Shown: positions 731 to 7,165, numbered from the stretch's first letter. The stretch is 64,000 bases of DNA from Candidatus Anstonellales archaeon (GCA_038890745.1 JAWAFD010000003.1:77375-141374); one strand, 5' to 3'. Notes: generated from the letters alone by a model not told the origin. Numbers and translations: made by a program.

Positions 731-1498
731 TTATTTTCCTGATATCTCTGTGCAAACCGGTTTTTTCTTTCCCAAAAGCAGCGCTTCGATTCTGTTTGGA
801 TGAAGGGCATTAACAACGTACGCAGGCCTTCTTGCTTTCATGATCTCCAAAATCTTTCCTCTCATCCCTCCTGTTACATCCGTTGTTCCAGCCCCTCCAA
901 GATGCTTTGATACTTTTTCAAAATTTTTTCTAGTTATTTTTTCAACAACTTTTCCATCTGCCAAAACCCCATCAACATTCGTTCCAAGAACGATAATTTC
1001 AGCATCCTTTCCTAACTCTGCAACTATCTTGTCTCCTGAGCAAACACTCCCCCCAAGTTTTTCATCCAAAACCATGTCTCCGTAGAGAACAGGAAGAAAA
1101 CCGGCTTTCAAATACTCATAAACAATTTTTTTGTTAAAACTTTTTATCCGGCCGTTTTTTTGTTTGATTATTACTGCCGGAGGAATGGAAATACTCGGAA
1201 CACCATATTTTATCAACGCATCCACTACAAGGGAGGAGAGGTACGCGCAGGAGGAATGCGTGTAGGAATATCCTACCCTGTCCTTTTCGGTTTTAATCCC
1301 TTTTTCTATTCCATATACCATAACCGGCCTATGGCCAAAAGAGCCGGCACCGTGCACAACAATTATTTTTATGCCCCTTTTCCATACGCCGGCAAGCATC
1401 TTTACGAGCGCCTCTATGTTCTCTATATTCGGCTCCTTATATCCGCTCTTTTTTGTTATCACGCTTCCTCCAAGTTTTACAATTTTTAATTTTTTCAT
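731..1498 (-). CDS. ipk: Isopentenyl phosphate kinase (amino-acid kinase fold)
   Basis: KLGGSVIT, VHGAGSFGH, PVLYGD, SGD and DVTGGM motifs; next to mevalonate-pathway genes. Confidence 0.92.
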   Translation of the reverse strand: MKKLKIVKLGGSVITKKSGYKEPNIENIEALVKMLAGVWKRGIKIIVVHGAGSFGHRPVMVYGIEKGIKTEKDRVGYSYTHSSCAYLSSLVVDALIKYGVPSISIPPAVIIKQKNGRIKSFNKKIVYEYLKAGFLPVLYGDMVLDEKLGGSVCSGDKIVAELGKDAEIIVLGTNVDGVLADGKVVEKITRKNFEKVSKHLGGAGTTDVTGGMRGKILEIMKARRPAYVVNALHPNRIEALLLGKKKPVCTEISGK

Positions 1499-1550
1499 AT
1501 GGGTTATTTCAATGTAAATGGTTTAAAACATTTCATTCAAATACTTAACA

Positions 1551-2084
1551 ATGAAAATTTTAGTGGCGATTACCGGAGCTTCCGGCTTAGTTTACGGAGT
1601 ACGAACAGCTGAAGTGCTAAAGAGATTGGGGCATGAGGTTTTTGTTGTTGTGAGCGAGGGGGCGAGGAAGGTTGCAAAGTACGAAAATGTAAAGCTTCCG
1701 AAAAGTGATTTTAATGAAAATGAGCTTGATGCCCCCTTTGCCTCTGGCTCATACAAACTAGATGGGATGATAGTTTCTCCGTGCTCTCTGAAAACTCTTG
1801 GGGAGATCGCAAACGGGGTTGGAAGCAACCTTATTGCAAGGGCTGGAGAAGTGATGCTTAAAGAGAGGAGAAGGCTTGTTCTTGTTATAAGGGAAACCCC
1901 GCTTTCATATGTTGCGATTAAAAACATGGAAACCATTACCCTTGCGGGAGGGATTGTTCTTCCTGCTTCCCCCGGGTTTTACCATTCGCCGAAAACAATA
2001 GAGGATATGGTGGATTTTGTCGTTGGAAAAACGCTAGATCAGTTTGGAATACAGCACAGGCTTTTTAGGAGGTGGAAAGGATGA
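1551..2084 (+). CDS. ubiX: Flavin prenyltransferase UbiX
   Basis: AITGASG, ASGS, PCS, RETPL and PGFYH motifs. Confidence 0.95.
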   Translation: MKILVAITGASGLVYGVRTAEVLKRLGHEVFVVVSEGARKVAKYENVKLPKSDFNENELDAPFASGSYKLDGMIVSPCSLKTLGEIANGVGSNLIARAGEVMLKERRRLVLVIRETPLSYVAIKNMETITLAGGIVLPASPGFYHSPKTIEDMVDFVVGKTLDQFGIQHRLFRRWKG

Positions 2085-3388
2085 AATCAAAATCTTTTAG
2101 GGATTTTTTGAAAGAGCTTGAGAAAAGGAAAAAATTAATAAAAATAAAGAAGCCGGTTTCAAAAAATTTGGAAGCAGCAGGCCTGCTCAAAGCCCTTGAT
2201 GGCAATCCGGTAATGCTTGAAAAGATAAAGGGTTCAGAATATAAAATTGCCGGGAATGTTTTTTCGACAAGGGAATTGGTTGCAGAGTGTTTGGGGGTAA
2301 AAAAGGATGCTCTGGTTGGAAAAATGATGAATGCAATAAACAACCCAACAAAACCAAAGCTTGTTGAAAAGAAAAAAGCACCGGTCCTTGAAATAACCGA
2401 AAAGAATGTCGACCTCTCAAAACTTCCTGTTCTTTTCCACTGCGAAAAGGATGGTGGGCCATATTTCTCTTCTGCTGTGATTGTTGCAAAGGACCCTGTG
2501 CTTGGGCATAATTGTTCTTTCCACAGATTGATGATGATCGGAAAGGACAGGGTAGTGGCGAGGATTCTTCCAAGGCATCTTGATGAATTTATAAAAAGAG
2601 CTGGGGGAGAGCTTGAGGTTGCGATAGTTGTTGGCGCGCCCATAAACTTTCTTCTCGGTGCAGCAACATCTGTAGAACTAGGGCAGAACGAGATGGAGAT
2701 AGCGAACTCTCTCATGCCTCTTGAGGTTGTTGAATTAGAAAATGGAATCCAGGTTCCTGCCCATGCAGAGTTTGTTCTTGAAGCCACTGTTACAAATGAG
2801 ATGCACGATGAAGGACCTTTTGTTGATCTGACCGAAACCTATGATATAGTTAGAAAACAAAGGGTTGTGAAAGTAAACAAGATCCACCATAGAAAAAATG
2901 CAATATACCACGCGCTCCTTCCCGGTGGATTGGAGCACAAGGTCCTGATGGGAATGCCGCGGGAGCCTACTATTTTCAATGAGGTAAATAAGGTTGTTGA
3001 GTGCAGGGGCGTGAACATAACTCCCGGTGGATGCTCCTGGCTTCATGCCGTTGTTTCAATAAAAAAGAAAAATGAGGATGATGGAAAAAAGGCAATAGAG
3101 GCTGCGTTTTTAGGCCACAAATCCATGAAGCACGTAGTAATTGTTGATGATGATATAGATATATACAATCCGAACGAGGTTGAGTGGGCCATTGCTACGA
3201 GGTTCCAAGCGGATAAAAAACTAGTTGTAAAAACGCATCAGAAAGGCTCTTCCCTTGATCCTTCAGCAGACCCAAATACCTATGAGACAACAAAAGCAGG
3301 AATAGATGCGACAAAACCAATTGTTGCGCATGGAAAAAATTTTGAGAAAGCTTTGTATAAAAAAGTAGATGTGAAAAAATATTTGTGA
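2081..3388 (+). CDS. UbiD-family prFMN decarboxylase, probably anhydromevalonate phosphate decarboxylase
   Basis: DGGPY, EGPF, VDDDID...WAIATR and SLDPS motifs; flanked by ubiX, AcnX subunits and ipk. Confidence 0.88.
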   Translation: MKSKSFRDFLKELEKRKKLIKIKKPVSKNLEAAGLLKALDGNPVMLEKIKGSEYKIAGNVFSTRELVAECLGVKKDALVGKMMNAINNPTKPKLVEKKKAPVLEITEKNVDLSKLPVLFHCEKDGGPYFSSAVIVAKDPVLGHNCSFHRLMMIGKDRVVARILPRHLDEFIKRAGGELEVAIVVGAPINFLLGAATSVELGQNEMEIANSLMPLEVVELENGIQVPAHAEFVLEATVTNEMHDEGPFVDLTETYDIVRKQRVVKVNKIHHRKNAIYHALLPGGLEHKVLMGMPREPTIFNEVNKVVECRGVNITPGGCSWLHAVVSIKKKNEDDGKKAIEAAFLGHKSMKHVVIVDDDIDIYNPNEVEWAIATRFQADKKLVVKTHQKGSSLDPSADPNTYETTKAGIDATKPIVAHGKNFEKALYKKVDVKKYL

Positions 3389-3397
3389 GGGAATGGT

Positions 3398-4573
3398 ATG
3401 GTGGAGCTAACAAAAAGAGAACAAAAAATGCTTGATGGAGAGTTTGGGGAAGCAACCCAGGAGGCCATGGAGATTCTTGTTGCATTAGCGAAAATCTACG
3501 ATGCAAAAAACATGATTCCAGTTTCCTCTGCTCAAATAGCAGGGGTTTCTTATGCAACGATAGGGGATGCAGGTTTGGAATATTTGAAAGAGTTTGCGAG
3601 AAAGGGAGCGAAGGTAAGAATTCCTGCGTTCCTCAATCCGGCTGGAATGGACTTGGAGCAATGGAAGGAGATGAGAGTGCCTGAGGAGTTTGCAAAAAAA
3701 CAGATAGAAATAATGAATGCTTATATCAACATGGGGGTTCATCCAACTGCTACATGCACCCCTTACCTGATTGGAATAAGGCCGAAAAGAGGGGAGCATG
3801 TTGCGTGGAGCGAGAGCTCTGCTGTTGTTTTTGCAAATTCAGTTTTGGGTGCGAGGACTAACAGGGAAGGAGGACCTTCTGCTCTTGCAGCGGCGATGTG
3901 CGGGGTTACTCCGAATTACGGATTGCATTTGGATGAAAACAGGTTTTGCAGTTTGCTTGTTGAGGTAGAGGCAAAATTGGAAAAAATCTCAGATTTTGGT
4001 GCGCTCGGCTATCATGTTGGCGCGCTTGCAAAGGGAAAAAACCCTGCGTTTTTTGGAATAAAAAAAGCAACAGAGGATCAGCTAAAATCCCTAGGCGCAG
4101 CAATGGCCGCCTCTGGCTCGGTTGCTTTGTACAACATGAAGAACATAACACCAGAGTACAGGGTGATTGATAGACCGGAAAAGATAACAATTACCGAAAG
4201 GGAAATAAAGGAAACAAAAGAAAAACTGAGTGAAACAAAGAAGGTTGAGCTCATGACATTCGGCTGTCCGCATGCTTCGATAGAAGAGATAAAAGAGATT
4301 GCAGAGAAGATAAAGGGAAAAAAACTGAAATGCGAACTGTGGATATGCACAGCGAGAAAAACAAAAGAGAAGGCAGATAGGCTCGGCTTGACAAAAATAA
4401 TACAGAAGGCAGGGGGGAGGATCGTTGCTGACACCTGTATGGTTGTCTCTCCTCTTTATGAGATGGGATACAGAAAAACCTCAACAAACTCTGGAAAATC
4501 CGCAAAATATTTGAGGGATTTGTGCAGGCAAAAAGTTTTTTTCGGTGAGTTGGAGGAGATGGTATGCGAGTGA
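3398..4573 (+). CDS. Aconitase X catalytic subunit, probably phosphomevalonate dehydratase large subunit
   Basis: TCTPY, AWSESSA, GARTNREGG, GCPH, DTCMVV and TNSGK motifs. Confidence 0.9.
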   Translation: MVELTKREQKMLDGEFGEATQEAMEILVALAKIYDAKNMIPVSSAQIAGVSYATIGDAGLEYLKEFARKGAKVRIPAFLNPAGMDLEQWKEMRVPEEFAKKQIEIMNAYINMGVHPTATCTPYLIGIRPKRGEHVAWSESSAVVFANSVLGARTNREGGPSALAAAMCGVTPNYGLHLDENRFCSLLVEVEAKLEKISDFGALGYHVGALAKGKNPAFFGIKKATEDQLKSLGAAMAASGSVALYNMKNITPEYRVIDRPEKITITEREIKETKEKLSETKKVELMTFGCPHASIEEIKEIAEKIKGKKLKCELWICTARKTKEKADRLGLTKIIQKAGGRIVADTCMVVSPLYEMGYRKTSTNSGKSAKYLRDLCRQKVFFGELEEMVCE

Positions 4574-4959
4574 AAGGGACCATAATTTCGCGCGGAAAAG
4601 CAGAGGGCAGGGTTTTGCTCAGCAAGGACCCTATATCTTTTCTCGGCGGAGTTGACCCGAAAACCGGGATAGTTATTGAAAAGGGTCACTCTATCTATGG
4701 CAGATGCATTTCTGGGACCATCCTAGTTTTTCCAAGAGGGAAGGGCTCAACCGTCGGCTCCTATGTCATGCTTCAATTGAAGAAAAACGGAAAAGCACCC
4801 GCAGGGATAATAAACGTTGATGCGGAGCCAATAATCGCGGTTGGGGCAATAATTTCAAACATACCGATGCTTGCTAAACTTGAGAAAGACCCATACTCAT
4901 TTTTAAAAAACGGAATGAAAGTAAAGGTGGATGCGGAGGAAGGGTTTGTGGAATATTAA
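4564..4959 (+). CDS. AcnX swivel subunit (DUF126), phosphomevalonate dehydratase small subunit
   Basis: ISFLGGVDPKTG and GKGSTVGS motifs. Confidence 0.9.
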   Translation: MRVKGTIISRGKAEGRVLLSKDPISFLGGVDPKTGIVIEKGHSIYGRCISGTILVFPRGKGSTVGSYVMLQLKKNGKAPAGIINVDAEPIIAVGAIISNIPMLAKLEKDPYSFLKNGMKVKVDAEEGFVEY

Positions 4960-5732
4960 AATATCCGCTTTAATTTAACGCTCCTTTCGCTAATCTCTCT
5001 TTTTGTTTGTTTTCTTTTTTCTTCCGATTCATTTTCCAGCGCTTTACATATTGCCGCCCATACCCTTCCTTTCTTTTCTTTTTCAGGAGTGTTAGCTATG
5101 AGAGCAGCTAAGGCATTCTTTGCTCCTTCGCTTATTCCAGGCTCAGGAGAATTGCACTTTTTTGCTAACAATTGGAGAACCCTTTTTGAGACAAAGGTTG
5201 AGTCTACGTCCATTAAAATAGCATACGCAACCCGATGGTTGTCAGTATATGCCGCGGGTCTAATGAGATTTCCGATAAGGTCAGAAAACCACGCCTTTAT
5301 TCTTAAACTATGCTTGCAGTCCTCAGTCGCGTAAACCAATTCTCTTGCAACTATCCCATAAAATTTTTTTGTATCCAGATTTGCGCTTCCATCCATAACT
5401 CTTGCCACAAGTGCCATTAAGATTCCATCCCGAAACATTTCAAGCTTTTTCTCAGGTTCGCCCGAAGCCGCAACATCTTTCATTATCCCTTTTTTAAATT
5501 CCTCATCTGAAATTTCTGTTTTAAAAACATGAGAAAGGAGCATTGCAAACCATCTTGCTCCATTTTCCCCGCAATCGTACAAATCATTTATTGCCCTCTC
5601 CATGAGCAAAAATATCTCTCTCGGCTTCTTTTTTATCTCATTCCATTCCTTTGCGATCACGGCAGGGTTTCCGTTGCTCTCTTTTATTCTAAAAAGATGG
5701 GCAGCCAAACTATTATCATCATAGTTATACAT
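4956..5732 (-). CDS. Hypothetical alpha-helical protein (start probably ATG 5732 rather than 5882)
   Basis: Long ORF; TATA-like TTTAAA about 30 nt upstream of 5732; no recognised motif. Confidence 0.6.
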   Translation of the reverse strand: MYNYDDNSLAAHLFRIKESNGNPAVIAKEWNEIKKKPREIFLLMERAINDLYDCGENGARWFAMLLSHVFKTEISDEEFKKGIMKDVAASGEPEKKLEMFRDGILMALVARVMDGSANLDTKKFYGIVARELVYATEDCKHSLRIKAWFSDLIGNLIRPAAYTDNHRVAYAILMDVDSTFVSKRVLQLLAKKCNSPEPGISEGAKNALAALIANTPEKEKKGRVWAAICKALENESEEKRKQTKREISERSVKLKRIF

Positions 5733-5790
5733 ACAATACAACATTGTTGGGGAAATATTTTTAAACATTTCTATATGTAATAATAAAAAC

Positions 5791-5871
5791 ATGAACCATA
5801 GCAAAATACTACCAAAAGTTTCTGCGATCTCCCCAGCTATGGTTTTCAGCTTCTTCTTTTTCCCCCAGTAA
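5791..5871 (+). CDS. Putative 26-aa leader peptide MNHSKILPKVSAISPAMVFSFFFFPQ
   Basis: ATG about 26 nt after TTTAAA; five Phe codons in six positions before CCC CAG TAA; homologous to 6540..6626. Confidence 0.6.
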   Translation: MNHSKILPKVSAISPAMVFSFFFFPQ

Positions 5872-5988
5872 GGGGGAGACACTAGAATTTATTTTTTAAA
5901 AAATTTCTAGCGCTCTGCGCTGTTTTTTATTTGTTTGTTAAAAACATAAAAAACAAAAAATAAAAACAAAAAAGAGGTGATGGATATG
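5861..5988 (+). repeat. 128-bp direct repeat, copy 1 (hairpins, U-tract, SD and start codon)
   Basis: Identical to 6616..6743 on reading (TCCCCCAGTAAGGGGGAGAC...GAGGTGATGGATATG). Confidence 0.95.
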
Positions 5989-6450
5989 TTGATTGGTTTG
6001 GAGGTTGCGGCAAAATCTGCCGTGGAAAGAGCGAATGGAAGAGTGCCAAGGATGAGGGAGATAGTAAAAGAACTGGATCTTGTTGAGGAGGCTAGGTTAG
6101 AGGTAGGCAAGAGTTTGAGACGCGCAGGAGTTGATGAGCTAATCAAGGAGATCAATAAGATTCCATATCCTACTATGCTAAATCTATCTGATGTTTTGGC
6201 TGCGCTGTCTCGCGTGGAAAGCGAAGGAAAAAGACTGATTGCGGGGGACAAGGCTGTTCTCATCGGTGTCCTCAAAGGACTTGCTGCTTTGGAGAAATGC
6301 AAGCGTACATACGACTCCACACTAAAACAGAGCTTGAGTACACTTATTCAAAATGCAATAGCGAGGATTGAGCTTGGGATTTATAAGAGAAGCCCCCCCT
6401 CTCCATCTCCAAAAGAAGATATGGGAATAAGCTACTACGCACCCTGGTGA
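5980..6450 (+). CDS. Orphan helical protein downstream of repeat copy 1
   Basis: GAGGTGA SD, open frame of about 155 aa, followed by a T-tract; exact start (5980 or 5986) uncertain. Confidence 0.7.
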   Translation: MDMLIGLEVAAKSAVERANGRVPRMREIVKELDLVEEARLEVGKSLRRAGVDELIKEINKIPYPTMLNLSDVLAALSRVESEGKRLIAGDKAVLIGVLKGLAALEKCKRTYDSTLKQSLSTLIQNAIARIELGIYKRSPPSPSPKEDMGISYYAPW

Positions 6451-6462
6451 TTGAGGCGCTCT

Positions 6463-6492
6463 ATTTTTCTTCTTTTTTTATTTTTTCTTTTT
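6463..6492 (+). terminator. Oligo-T archaeal terminator
   Basis: Long T-rich run directly after the stop codon. Confidence 0.55.
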
Positions 6493-6539
6493 GCCAAAAC
6501 AAAACATTTAAAAATATTTCGCTGCATAAAAATAAAAAC

Positions 6540-6626
6540 ATGAACCTATACGGAACTACACAAATGGGATTTGCGAAGACCCCAGCCGCAGTTCCGTCCC
6601 TCATCCTAATTCTCATCCCCCAGTAA
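6540..6626 (+). CDS. Putative 28-aa leader peptide MNLYGTTQMGFAKTPAAVPSLILILIPQ
   Basis: ATG about 30 nt after TTTAAAAA; shares AATAAAAACATGAACC with unit 1; Leu/Ile run before CCC CAG TAA. Confidence 0.6.
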   Translation: MNLYGTTQMGFAKTPAAVPSLILILIPQ

Positions 6627-6743
6627 GGGGGAGACACTAGAATTTATTTTTTAAAAAATTTCTAGCGCTCTGCGCTGTTTTTTATTTGTTTGTTAAAAAC
6701 ATAAAAAACAAAAAATAAAAACAAAAAAGAGGTGATGGATATG
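6616..6743 (+). repeat. 128-bp direct repeat, copy 2
   Basis: Identical to 5861..5988 (offset 755 nt). Confidence 0.95.
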
Positions 6744-7001
6744 GAAAAGATGGTTGATAAAAATGGTGGGTCTGTTAGGAAGCCGGGGAAAGGCTTTGCG
6801 GCCAAAGAGCCAGAAGTAGATAGGGTTTCCAAAGTACCTTCCAGAGAAGAAATGGCTAAAGCAGTTAGAGAGTGGTGCAAAAAAAATGGATACGACCCAG
6901 ATGAAACTATGAAGAGGTACTTTAATGGAGTGAGGGAAAAGAGCGAAGAGGAAAAAGCTCGGGACGAGTTCCATGAATACTGGGTAAACCTGCTGGTCTG
7001 A
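6735..7001 (+). CDS. Small orphan protein downstream of repeat copy 2
   Basis: GAGGTGA SD, about 88 aa, followed by a T-tract; exact start (6735 or 6741) uncertain. Confidence 0.65.
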   Translation: MDMEKMVDKNGGSVRKPGKGFAAKEPEVDRVSKVPSREEMAKAVREWCKKNGYDPDETMKRYFNGVREKSEEEKARDEFHEYWVNLLV

Positions 7002-7032
7002 CACCTAAAAAATTGGCCAACGCGGCTGGGGG

Positions 7033-7062
7033 TTTCTTTCTTTTTTCTTTTTTTATTTTATT
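7033..7062 (+). terminator. Oligo-T terminator
   Basis: TTTCTTTCTTTTTTCTTTTTTTATTTATT after the orphan ORF. Confidence 0.55.
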
Positions 7063-7073
7063 CGAACCAAAAA

Positions 7074-7165
7074 GCAAACCTATTTAAACATTTCTCCTAA
7101 AAATTATTCTTCACTCCTTATGAGGAGGCGTCCCCGGTTTGGTTTGGGGCAACGCGGGTGAAAAA
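7074..7165 (+). promoter_or_regulatory. Promoter (TATTTAAA 7081-7088) and structured 5' leader of the ribosomal protein operon
   Basis: TATA box, then GC-rich hairpins with a helix that can sequester the GGTGA SD. Confidence 0.55.

What the first reader, a model, noticed from the sequence alone, without database searches (positions are those of the whole stretch)
5756..7062. Tandem leader-peptide plus identical structured element modules controlling orphan genes: candidate archaeal attenuation or ribosome-arrest system
Seen: two units with the same layout, namely TATA (about 5760; about 6507), AATAAAAAC-ATG, a short uORF, a 128-bp identical element, GAGGTGA SD, an unrelated orphan ORF and a T-tract. 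The uORFs, which the ORF track misses, are homologous but diverged: MNHSKILPKVSAISPAMVFSFFFFPQ* and MNLYGTTQMGFAKTPAAVPSLILILIPQ*. They share A-x-x-P-A-x-V-x-S and PQ-stop, keep their frame despite a 2-codon length difference, and differ in the run before PQ (Phe versus Leu/Ile). Established: bacterial attenuator leaders (pheL, ilvL/leuL) carry cognate-codon runs, arrest peptides such as TnaC stall at termination, and transcription and translation are coupled in archaea. Inference: each unit may sense aminoacyl-tRNA supply or ribosome stalling and gate read-through into its orphan gene, using a reusable expression platform with swapped sensor codons. I know of no such described archaeal module. 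Alternative: the uORFs encode small hydrophobic toxin or pheromone peptides.
Basis: partly seen in the sequence, partly recalled or inferred. Interest (0 to 1): 0.85.

Follow-up and report, generated by a model that had tools for sequence, protein, structure and literature searches.

The report
Archaeal leader-peptide switches before orphan genes
Two tiny upstream genes, one ending in phenylalanine codons and its duplicate in leucine/isoleucine codons, sit on the same folded RNA in front of two unknown genes of a hot-spring archaeon and look like ribosome-read amino-acid gauges, a kind of control well known in bacteria but not yet shown in archaea.

Summary
Observation confirmed. Both units are real: TATA box, leaderless uORF (26 and 28 codons), identical 128-bp element, SD, orphan ORF, U-tract. 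One correction: the shared PQ-stop lies inside the duplicated element, and one orthologue has PR-stop. Unit 1 is conserved in four lineages of one Anstonellales (Micrarchaeota) genus. Frame, five Phe codons, 5' hairpin, stop-in-loop hairpin and GC hairpin are kept, with almost no synonymous change but tolerated missense change: a cis-acting RNA, not a selected peptide. Unit 2 swaps all five Phe codons for Leu/Ile. Elsewhere in the order the same layout heads proC/proB (Pro codons), and aro/pheA operons carry Phe/Tyr/Trp leaders. A model built only from proC leaders ranks the two window leaders first and second in the window. Best reading (0.6): ribosome-read attenuators sensing Phe and Ile/Leu charging, redeployed on orphan genes in a genus where no tested pathway gene was found. 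Not shown: translation, expression, the switch itself (folding models disagree between orthologues), or target function. The scan noted archaeal aro leaders and His frameshifts before on other DNA; the sensor swap, orphan targets and pro-leader link did not appear in my look-ups.

The parts
5760..5767 (+). TATA box of unit 1, 31 nt before the uORF ATG (leaderless spacing)
   Evidence: the same 31 nt in the three orthologues with an intact leader
5791..5871 (+). uORF1, 26 codons, probably leaderless
   Evidence: frame and length kept in G002/L024, L025, L026
5794..5844 (+). P1 hairpin inside uORF1 (arms 5794-5802 and 5836-5844)
   Evidence: arms 18/18 identical in all four unit-1 lineages, loop 24-31/33
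5845..5862 (+). sensor slot of unit 1: Phe-x-Phe-Phe-Phe-Phe; predicted to pair with the downstream SD in ribosome-free RNA
   Evidence: Phe codons invariant, x = Ser/Gly/Cys/Ala
5861..5988 (+). 128-bp element, copy 1 (stop hairpin, U-tract, GC hairpin, U-tract, A-rich spacer, SD, start codon)
5861..5877 (+). P2 hairpin with the uORF stop codon in its loop
   Evidence: 6 of 6 pairs invariant; L025 changes two loop bases and keeps the stop in frame
5888..5897 (+). inner U-tract, complementary to the A-rich spacer before the SD
5908..5939 (+). P3 GC hairpin (5908-5922) followed by a U-tract (5923-5939): candidate terminator
   Evidence: one compensatory G-C to C-G change (L026); a single event, 103 of 500 shuffles reach it
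5974..5980 (+). Shine-Dalgarno sequence of ORF1
5986..6450 (+). ORF1, 154 aa, helical bundle with a disordered tail ending in a nearly invariant 9-residue motif; found only in this genus
6462..6492 (+). U-tract after ORF1 (candidate terminator)
6507..6514 (+). TATA box of unit 2, 33 nt before the ATG
   Evidence: best promoter score among 32 unannotated leaderless short ORFs listed
6540..6626 (+). uORF2, 28 codons
   Evidence: a related leader in run X5 starts its ORF the same number of codons upstream
6550..6597 (+). P1-like hairpin of uORF2 with different arms (6550-6557 and 6590-6597)
6600..6617 (+). sensor slot of unit 2: (Leu-Ile)3
   Evidence: against unit 1, codon positions 1/2/3 differ in 5/1/3 of 6 codons
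6616..6743 (+). 128-bp element, copy 2 (P2 6616-6632, P3 6663-6677, U-tract 6678-6694, SD 6729-6735)
6741..7001 (+). ORF2, 86 aa orphan, three predicted helices
7033..7062 (+). U-tract after ORF2, before the separate promoter of the uL3 ribosomal-protein operon

Best explanation
Each unit is a ribosome-read leader-peptide attenuator. Transcription starts at the uORF ATG (inferred from spacing). The ribosome opens P1 and reaches the sensor slot. With charged tRNA plentiful it runs to the stop in the P2 loop and leaves; the leader then refolds so that the slot pairs with the downstream SD and/or the GC hairpin plus U-tract ends transcription, with aCPSF1/FttA available: gene OFF. When Phe-tRNA (unit 1) or Ile/Leu-tRNA (unit 2) runs short, the ribosome dwells on the slot, keeps it and P2 unpaired and stays coupled to RNA polymerase: gene ON. 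Shown: anatomy, conservation, codon swap, same-layout leaders before cognate genes in relatives. Inferred: translation, sensing, direction, and level of control (my split: SD masking 45%, termination 35%, both 20%). No tested Phe or branched-chain pathway gene was found in this genus, so the targets are not the usual enzymes. My guess (about 0.3) is that they are starvation-induced regulators, switched on when amino acids from a host or the surroundings fall short. Unit 2 arose by duplication of the leader; its 3' 128 bp were recently copied or homogenised while its 5' half carries another sensor.
For: uORF frame, length and five Phe codons kept in 4 of 4 lineages with a readable leader (G000, G002=L024, L025, L026) while ORF1 is only 43-50% identical. 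Synonymous changes 0-1 of 26 codons per pair against 24-38 of the first 100 codons of uL3; missense changes 2-7 of 26. ATG 31 nt from TATA in all four, inside the genome's leaderless peak. Unit 2 replaces all five Phe codons with codon-position bias 5/1/3. In free RNA the run codons are the main SD partner in 5 of 5 leaders. Same layout (TATA, short uORF with internal hairpin, Pro-containing tail, stop in or near a hairpin, U-tract, A-rich spacer, SD) before proC in 8 of 30 proC loci read and before proB in two more. Model R2, built from 7 proC leaders of other families only, ranks window 5791-5988 (33.1 bits) and 6540-6743 (30.0) first and second in 64 kb, ATG to ATG; next best 14.9; its top hit in G002 is the orthologue (31.6 bits). 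Aromatic-rich uORFs precede 25 of 29 aro-operon or pheA starts tested (24 if one doubtful row is dropped) against 29 of 183 control genes of G000 (gene names checked for 3 of them). aCPSF1 is present. uORF1 meets the five-Phe criterion used for pheL (PMC3082878, passages).
Against: No expression or translation data. The targets are not biosynthetic: no match for prephenate dehydratase, DAHP synthase, ProC or LeuA-like families in G000/G001/G002 and none for IlvD (genomes 82-94% complete). A clean antiterminator is predicted for both window units when RNA behind the ribosome is held open, but only for unit 2 when it may refold; G002, L025 and L026 give at most partial loss of P3. SD pairing of the native run beats synonymous recodings only modestly (fraction at least as good 0.05-0.47), and with a limited footprint the SD stays 45-80% paired at 55 C while the ribosome sits on the run. 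Covariation rests on one compensatory pair. No Ile/Leu-run leader before 30 ileS loci or the few ilv/leu loci of the order. The link to the pro leaders is modest: the filtered whole-genome R2 search missed both window units, a sequence-only profile gave E 0.37 at best, and R1 produced unrelated hits of 25-35 bits. A profile of the aro leaders does not find the window units. None of 5 pheA loci of the window's own family showed such a leader.
Confidence: 0.6

Rival explanations
1. The leaders are ribosome-read, but the signal is not Phe or Ile/Leu. Both sense proline or slow termination at the shared Pro-x-stop, inherited from a pro-operon leader, or a hydrophobic nascent chain stalls the ribosome (arrest-peptide type). 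The run is then there for pairing or for hydrophobicity.
For: The closest relatives by model are the pro leaders, whose Pro sits two or three codons before the stop in most members, as here. The Pro codon is invariant in 5 of 5 leaders. The second codon position stays U in the swap. 26-28 residues would fill the exit tunnel (established knowledge). PMC3082878 (passages) notes slow termination after Pro.
Against: The Pro codon is also the 5' arm of P2, so pairing explains its invariance. Gln is not kept (L025). The N-terminal half changes freely, unlike arrest peptides. A pure hydrophobicity constraint would not be expected to remove all five Phe codons while flanking sequence stays alike.
Confidence: 0.18
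2. A structured 5' leader with constitutive translational coupling, or a short non-coding RNA. The uORF merely opens the SD, or is incidental, and nothing is sensed.
For: Constraint is at nucleotide level. In G002 and L025 the SD is freed mainly when the ribosome is at the last codons or the stop. The orthologues show no robust switch. No cognate pathway genes were found.
Against: It does not explain the codon-periodic Phe-to-Leu/Ile swap, the in-frame 6-nt indel, the absence of frameshifting indels in the uORF while the spacer and A-tract take them, or cognate-codon leaders of the same layout before pro and aro genes.
Confidence: 0.15
3. The uORFs encode small hydrophobic peptides acting in trans (type I toxin or signal), with the element as their 3' UTR or antisense control region.
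For: Hydrophobic C-termini; the minus strand of the element folds well (z -5.1); weak Rfam similarity to BsrG (21 bits against a cut-off of 55).
Against: Missense changes outnumber synonymous ones in every pair. The hydrophobic stretch is about 9 residues, too short to span a membrane (established knowledge). The two paralogues share little beyond RNA-paired positions. The layout matches cis leaders of biosynthetic operons.
Confidence: 0.05
4. The duplication is an assembly artefact.
For: The two copies are 100% identical.
Against: Contigs of other runs branch at both ends of the element and join it to both uORFs and both ORFs; variant leaders of both types occur in X4 and X5.
Confidence: 0.02

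Closest known systems
Enterobacterial pheL-pheA attenuator (PMC3082878, passages read) and the ilv/leu leader peptides (recalled)
   Same: Short uORF with a run of at least five Phe codons (unit 1) or Leu/Ile codons (unit 2), Pro near the stop, hairpins, and a GC hairpin followed by a U-run before the main gene.
   Different: Archaeal TATA promoter and probably a leaderless uORF; targets are orphans, not pathway enzymes; no conserved 2:3 antiterminator could be modelled; archaeal termination is U-tract and aCPSF1 centred (PMC8116511, PMC13675443, passages).
Mycobacterial polycysteine leaderless sORFs such as Ms5788A (bioRxiv 10.1101/834739, passages read)
   Same: Leaderless uORF, homopolymeric run near its 3' end, run predicted to pair with the downstream SD: translational attenuation.
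   Different: Phe and Leu/Ile instead of Cys; the pairing here is short (about 9 bp) and not a long duplex; archaeal host; the targets have no known link to the amino acid.
Arrest peptides acting at or near termination, such as TnaC (cited in PMC3082878; otherwise recalled)
   Same: Length of 24-30 codons, Pro close to the stop, possible coupling to a termination factor.
   Different: Peptide sequence is not conserved; the last residue varies; no ligand is indicated.
Unpublished leaders of Anstonellales seen here: pro-operon leaders and aro/pheA leaders
   Same: uORF with an internal 5' hairpin, cognate codons near the end, hairpin plus U-tract, SD. The pro type shares the stop-in-hairpin geometry and is found by reciprocal models.
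   Different: Those head cognate biosynthetic genes; many pro genes add a +1 frameshift site at a Pro codon, which the window units lack (0 matches in G000). The aro-leader profile does not detect the window units.

Membership tests
Classical ribosome-mediated transcription attenuator (pheL type) | Short uORF with a run of codons for one amino acid or pathway | tested here: met
Classical ribosome-mediated transcription attenuator (pheL type) | Terminator-like hairpin plus U-run between uORF and main gene | tested here: met
   P3 plus U-tract in 5 of 5 leaders, one compensatory change; structure only, termination not measured
Classical ribosome-mediated transcription attenuator (pheL type) | Mutually exclusive antiterminator formed when the ribosome stalls on the run | tested here: inconclusive
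   clear in unit 2, assumption-dependent in unit 1, weak in three orthologues
Classical ribosome-mediated transcription attenuator (pheL type) | Controlled gene makes, imports or charges the cognate amino acid | tested here: inconclusive
   ORF1 and ORF2 match no family at cut-off; function unknown, not a recognisable enzyme, transporter or synthetase
Classical ribosome-mediated transcription attenuator (pheL type) | Read-through rises on starvation for the cognate amino acid | not testable with these tools
   needs reporters or Term-seq
Leaderless-sORF translational attenuator (Ms5788A type) | uORF starts at the transcription start | tested here: inconclusive
   TATA spacing 31 and 33 nt against a 27-32 nt peak; no start-site data
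Leaderless-sORF translational attenuator (Ms5788A type) | Sensor codons pair with the downstream SD and are freed by the stalled ribosome | tested here: inconclusive
   pairing predicted in 5 of 5 free RNAs, but weakly above synonymous controls and only partly relieved by the ribosome
Nascent-peptide arrest leader (TnaC type) | Conserved peptide residues beyond RNA constraints | tested here: not met
   missense exceeds synonymous change; the terminal residue varies
Type I toxin-antitoxin locus | Small hydrophobic protein under protein-level selection | tested here: not met
   hydrophobic stretch of about 9 residues
Type I toxin-antitoxin locus | Antisense antitoxin RNA | not tested
   no RNA data; antisense promoters not examined
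Any Rfam family | Score at or above the gathering threshold | tested here: not met
   best 23.4 bits, all far below cut-off; 0 matches in four related pro/aro/pheA loci
Anstonellales pro-operon leader (defined here) | Reciprocal model match over the full leader | tested here: inconclusive
   top two hits in the window and top hit in G002, and R1 found one pro leader; but scores are only 30-35 bits and filtered searches miss them

The most novel reading that the evidence does not exclude
Micrarchaeota run a modular family of leaderless leader-peptide attenuators in which a sensor slot between a 5' hairpin and a stop-codon hairpin is refilled (Pro, Phe, Ile/Leu). This reduced hot-spring genus, in which no tested pathway gene was found, has rewired the device to switch on new regulatory proteins when amino acids supplied from outside run short: a ribosome-read starvation or host-loss alarm, caught in the act of duplication and sensor swap.
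Probability: 0.35. Interest if true: 0.88.

Novelty: new variant of a known kind. Interest (0 to 1): 0.7.

Why it matters
A 2021 paper states that no transcription attenuation or antitermination is known in archaea (PMC8448881, passage read), and my ten library searches showed no archaeal leader-peptide attenuator. This locus is a natural controlled experiment: two leaders with a letter-identical 128-bp output platform and different sensor codons. Swapping six codons tests amino-acid specificity directly, and it also tests whether ribosome position governs aCPSF1-dependent termination in archaea. It would further point to two genes that a small, probably host-dependent archaeon turns on when starved.

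Tried and rejected
More copies in the genome: none by BLAST, leaderless-sORF scan (it excluded uORF1 itself because of an overlapping antisense frame) or model R1. Exact-pattern scans of metagenome and viral contigs were empty. ORF1 was found in 3 of 176 genomes of the order and its tail motif in 3 of 401 of the phylum, all one genus; G001's contig begins inside the element, so its uORF could not be read. HMMER over 1.84 billion representatives gave 3 true relatives and 2 repeat-rich long proteins that I rejected as summed weak matches. Fold searches gave no usable match: ORF1 best Z 7.9 (rmsd 7.1, 117 aligned) and 7.2 (TFIIS LW domain, rmsd 3.4, 81 aligned), below the level that means anything for helical bundles; Foldseek nothing under E 0.001; ORF2's model was poor (pTM 0.34, best Z 3.7). 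ESM Atlas: no usable hit. ORF2's Lsr2-like Pfam hit is under cut-off; its viral hits are short local matches; no longer relatives. No RNA holder was listed. Read-through or fusion of uORF to ORF: rejected, there is an in-frame stop in the element and the frame differs in G002. Frameshift cassette in G000: 0 matches. Most R1 hits of 25-35 bits in other genera were A-rich spacer plus SD only. ileS leaders 0 of 30; ilv/leu loci gave no clear leader. KARI search was mostly off-target. A recalled Met-Trp minigene before trpY in Methanothermobacter could not be found in the library and stays unchecked. No complex prediction was sent: no partner was indicated. No supplements were read.

Full report
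SETTING. The window is G000:C3:77375-141374, a 0.99-Mb, 94% complete genome. Relatives of ORF1 are labelled Candidatus Anstonellales archaeon, and all five runs that hold the DNA are hot-spring metagenomes of two studies. The two units lie between an aconitase-X-like gene pair with a divergent orphan gene and the uL3 ribosomal-protein operon, which has its own TATA box.

OBSERVATION. The description holds at the given coordinates. The element occurs in full only twice in the genome. It starts inside the last run codon, so Pro-Gln-stop is part of the duplication. Contigs from runs X2 and X3 break at the element's ends and join it to both uORFs and both ORFs; X4 holds a strain with two missense changes in the uORF1 loop; X5, from a second study, holds a unit-2-type leader (the table of differences was cut, 57 rows not shown). 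The duplication is real.

PROMOTER. Among 931 crudely called genes, TATA-to-ATG distances peak sharply at 27-32 nt. uORF1 lies at 31 nt, as do its three orthologues; uORF2 lies at 33 nt and has the best promoter score of 32 unannotated candidates. Leaderless translation is inferred from this, not shown.

CONSERVATION. Unit 1 is present in G002 and in metagenome loci L024 (same as G002), L025 and L026; G001's contig starts inside the element. All four readable leaders keep 26 codons, five Phe codons, both P1 arms (18/18), the P2 stem with the stop in its loop, and P3 with a U-tract. The codon between the Phe codons varies (Ser, Gly, Cys, Ala) and L025 ends in Arg. Per pair, 0-1 of 26 codons change synonymously and 2-7 change the residue, against 24-38 synonymous changes in the first 100 codons of uL3 (the G000 rows for uL3 were out of frame and are replaced). 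Selection therefore acts on the RNA and on an open frame, not on the peptide. Indels fall in the spacer and A-tract, and the only indel inside a uORF is 6 nt. Between the units, the six run codons differ at positions 1, 2 and 3 in 5, 1 and 3 cases. P3 shows one compensatory change, which alone is not significant. The units were not found outside the genus in the genomes searched. G002, L025, L026 and G001 lack unit 2 at this place.

THE WIDER FAMILY. A model of the five leaders (R1) hit 25 of 150 genomes at E 0.01, mostly A-rich spacer plus SD. One hit, L039 in another family, began exactly at the ATG of a 25-codon uORF at leaderless spacing and lay before a proC homologue. Of 55 proC homologues in the order I read 30 loci: 8 have such a leader, 11 follow a proA-like gene by my reading, and 11 have none. 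These uORFs are 22-41 codons long, fold a 5' hairpin, end near Pro-Gly, and mostly have the stop in a small hairpin, followed by U-rich and A-rich tracts and the SD. A model from 7 of them (R2; RNAalifold kept only 4 pairs) found two new members in 150 genomes, both before proB. Run unfiltered on the window, R2 ranked the two leaders first and second from ATG to ATG (33.1 and 30.0 bits, next 14.9), and its top hit in G002 was the orthologue. Against this: the filtered G000 search missed them, and a sequence-only profile gave E 0.37. Common ancestry is plausible, not proven. For aromatic genes I fetched 40 regions and used one earlier locus; 29 had a readable operon start. Twelve were left out: 8 loci of the window's family, where pheA is not in such an operon (5 inspected, no leader), and 4 at contig edges or gaps. 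25 of 29 have a uORF with at least 5 Phe/Tyr/Trp in 12 codons (one, L178, is doubtful), against 29 of 183 control genes in G000. First genes were confirmed as DAHP synthase (2) and prephenate dehydratase (1). Their profile does not find the window units. Related genomes are not independent samples. No Ile/Leu leader was seen before 30 ileS loci or the few ilv/leu loci, so unit 2's sensor has no cognate counterpart in the order so far.

MECHANISM. Modelled with the ribosome as an unpaired footprint: when all RNA behind the ribosome is held open, both window units switch cleanly, P3 falling from about 0.98 to about 0 on the run, while G002 and L025 do not switch. When upstream RNA may refold, only unit 2 keeps the switch; unit 1 and the orthologues show brief or partial dips. 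In ribosome-free RNA the run codons are the main partner of the SD in all five leaders, but native codons beat synonymous versions only modestly, and the SD is not fully freed on the run. aCPSF1 is present, and a review suggests that ribosome coupling and aCPSF1 termination may exclude each other (PMC8116511, passages). Archaeal U-tracts need no hairpin (PMC13675443, passages). I commit to stall-ON attenuation (0.6), with the level of control open.

TARGETS. ORF1 is a helical bundle (pLDDT 79) with a disordered tail whose last residues are nearly invariant in all six full-length relatives read, which suggests a docking motif. ORF2 is an orphan with three predicted helices. No match was found in the genus for prephenate dehydratase, DAHP synthase, ProC, LeuA-like or IlvD families (82-94% complete), although many Anstonellales make most amino acids (PMC12892359, passages). 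The leaders have thus outlived, or been moved away from, cognate pathway genes. Starvation-induced regulators is my guess at the function, at about 0.3.

COMPARISON AND NOVELTY. It works like pheL (PMC3082878, passages) and like the mycobacterial polycysteine leaderless sORFs (10.1101/834739, passages). I do not file it as a member of either: the switch and the response are unshown, and the targets differ. No Rfam match. PMC8448881 (2021, passage) states that no attenuation is known in archaea; archaeal uORFs are known from ribosome profiling without a mechanism (PMC7261190, passages); PMC8211752 (passages) lists one archaeal frameshift case. Ten searches (listings and abstract starts only) showed no archaeal leader-peptide attenuator; the library lacks most subscription papers, and a recalled trpY minigene is unchecked. 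Earlier agents of this scan noted aromatic, Cys, Leu/Ile, Ala and Trp leaders and a His frameshift in other archaea; these are unchecked notes and no support. My look-ups showed nothing on this locus, on a pro leader of this type, or on a sensor swap.

VERDICT. Real and conserved, most likely a pair of ribosome-read amino-acid attenuators; a new variant of a known kind; interest 0.7.

Noticed in passing
L101, L103-L105, L107-L110, L112-L128, L040, L291 and others (order-wide; 0 matches in G000): A prfB-like +1 frameshift site (internal SD-like purine run, three bases, a Leu codon, then a test codon) near gene starts: 107 places in 68 of 176 genomes against about 34 for the reversed pattern (my counts). 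Of 34 sites read, 25 have a His codon (hisD, hisG, small regulators), 3 Phe (two before small HTH-like genes), 1 Pro (proC), 1 Cys (cysteine-synthase-like gene) and 4 look like chance. An earlier scan note covers the His case.
   Followed up: partly
L069, L071, L072, L074, L075, L077, L078, L093, L291, L292: Pro-operon leader family: a uORF with a Pro-containing tail before proC or proB, often followed by a second Pro-codon +1 frameshift, so two proline sensors in series.
   Followed up: partly
L153, L174-L176, L181, L185, L187-L190, L192-L205: Phe/Tyr/Trp-rich leader uORFs before DAHP-synthase-led aro operons and stand-alone pheA.
   Followed up: partly
window 7100-7165; L024:2950-3000, L025:1330-1385, L026:4700-4760, L003: The 5' leader of the uL3 ribosomal-protein operon carries a conserved GC-rich hairpin motif in all five lineages: a candidate autoregulatory element.
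   Followed up: no
window 6421-6450 (end of ORF1): The last residues of ORF1 are nearly invariant, with synonymous changes, while the rest of the protein is 43-50% identical between species.
   Followed up: partly
L026:3480-4660; L024:2600-2920: The spot between ORF1 and uL3 takes different cargo: unit 2 in the window, an ATPase-like gene flanked by short direct repeats in L026, and a hairpin with U/A tracts in G002.
   Followed up: no
L283 (G000:C3:33451-33670, outside the window): Repeats of about 37 bases with unique spacers on the minus strand, like a CRISPR array.
   Followed up: no
window 4956-5720 (-): Orphan gene of about 254 codons, divergent from unit 1, no Pfam match, kept in G002, L025 and L026.
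   Followed up: no
window 731-4959: Kinase, UbiX-like, UbiD-like and aconitase-X-like genes in a row, as in the modified archaeal mevalonate pathway (by my reading; only the last two were scanned).
   Followed up: no
G000 whole genome: ARAGORN without the intron option found only 12 tRNA genes and no tRNA-Phe; probably introns or assembly gaps, not checked.
   Followed up: no
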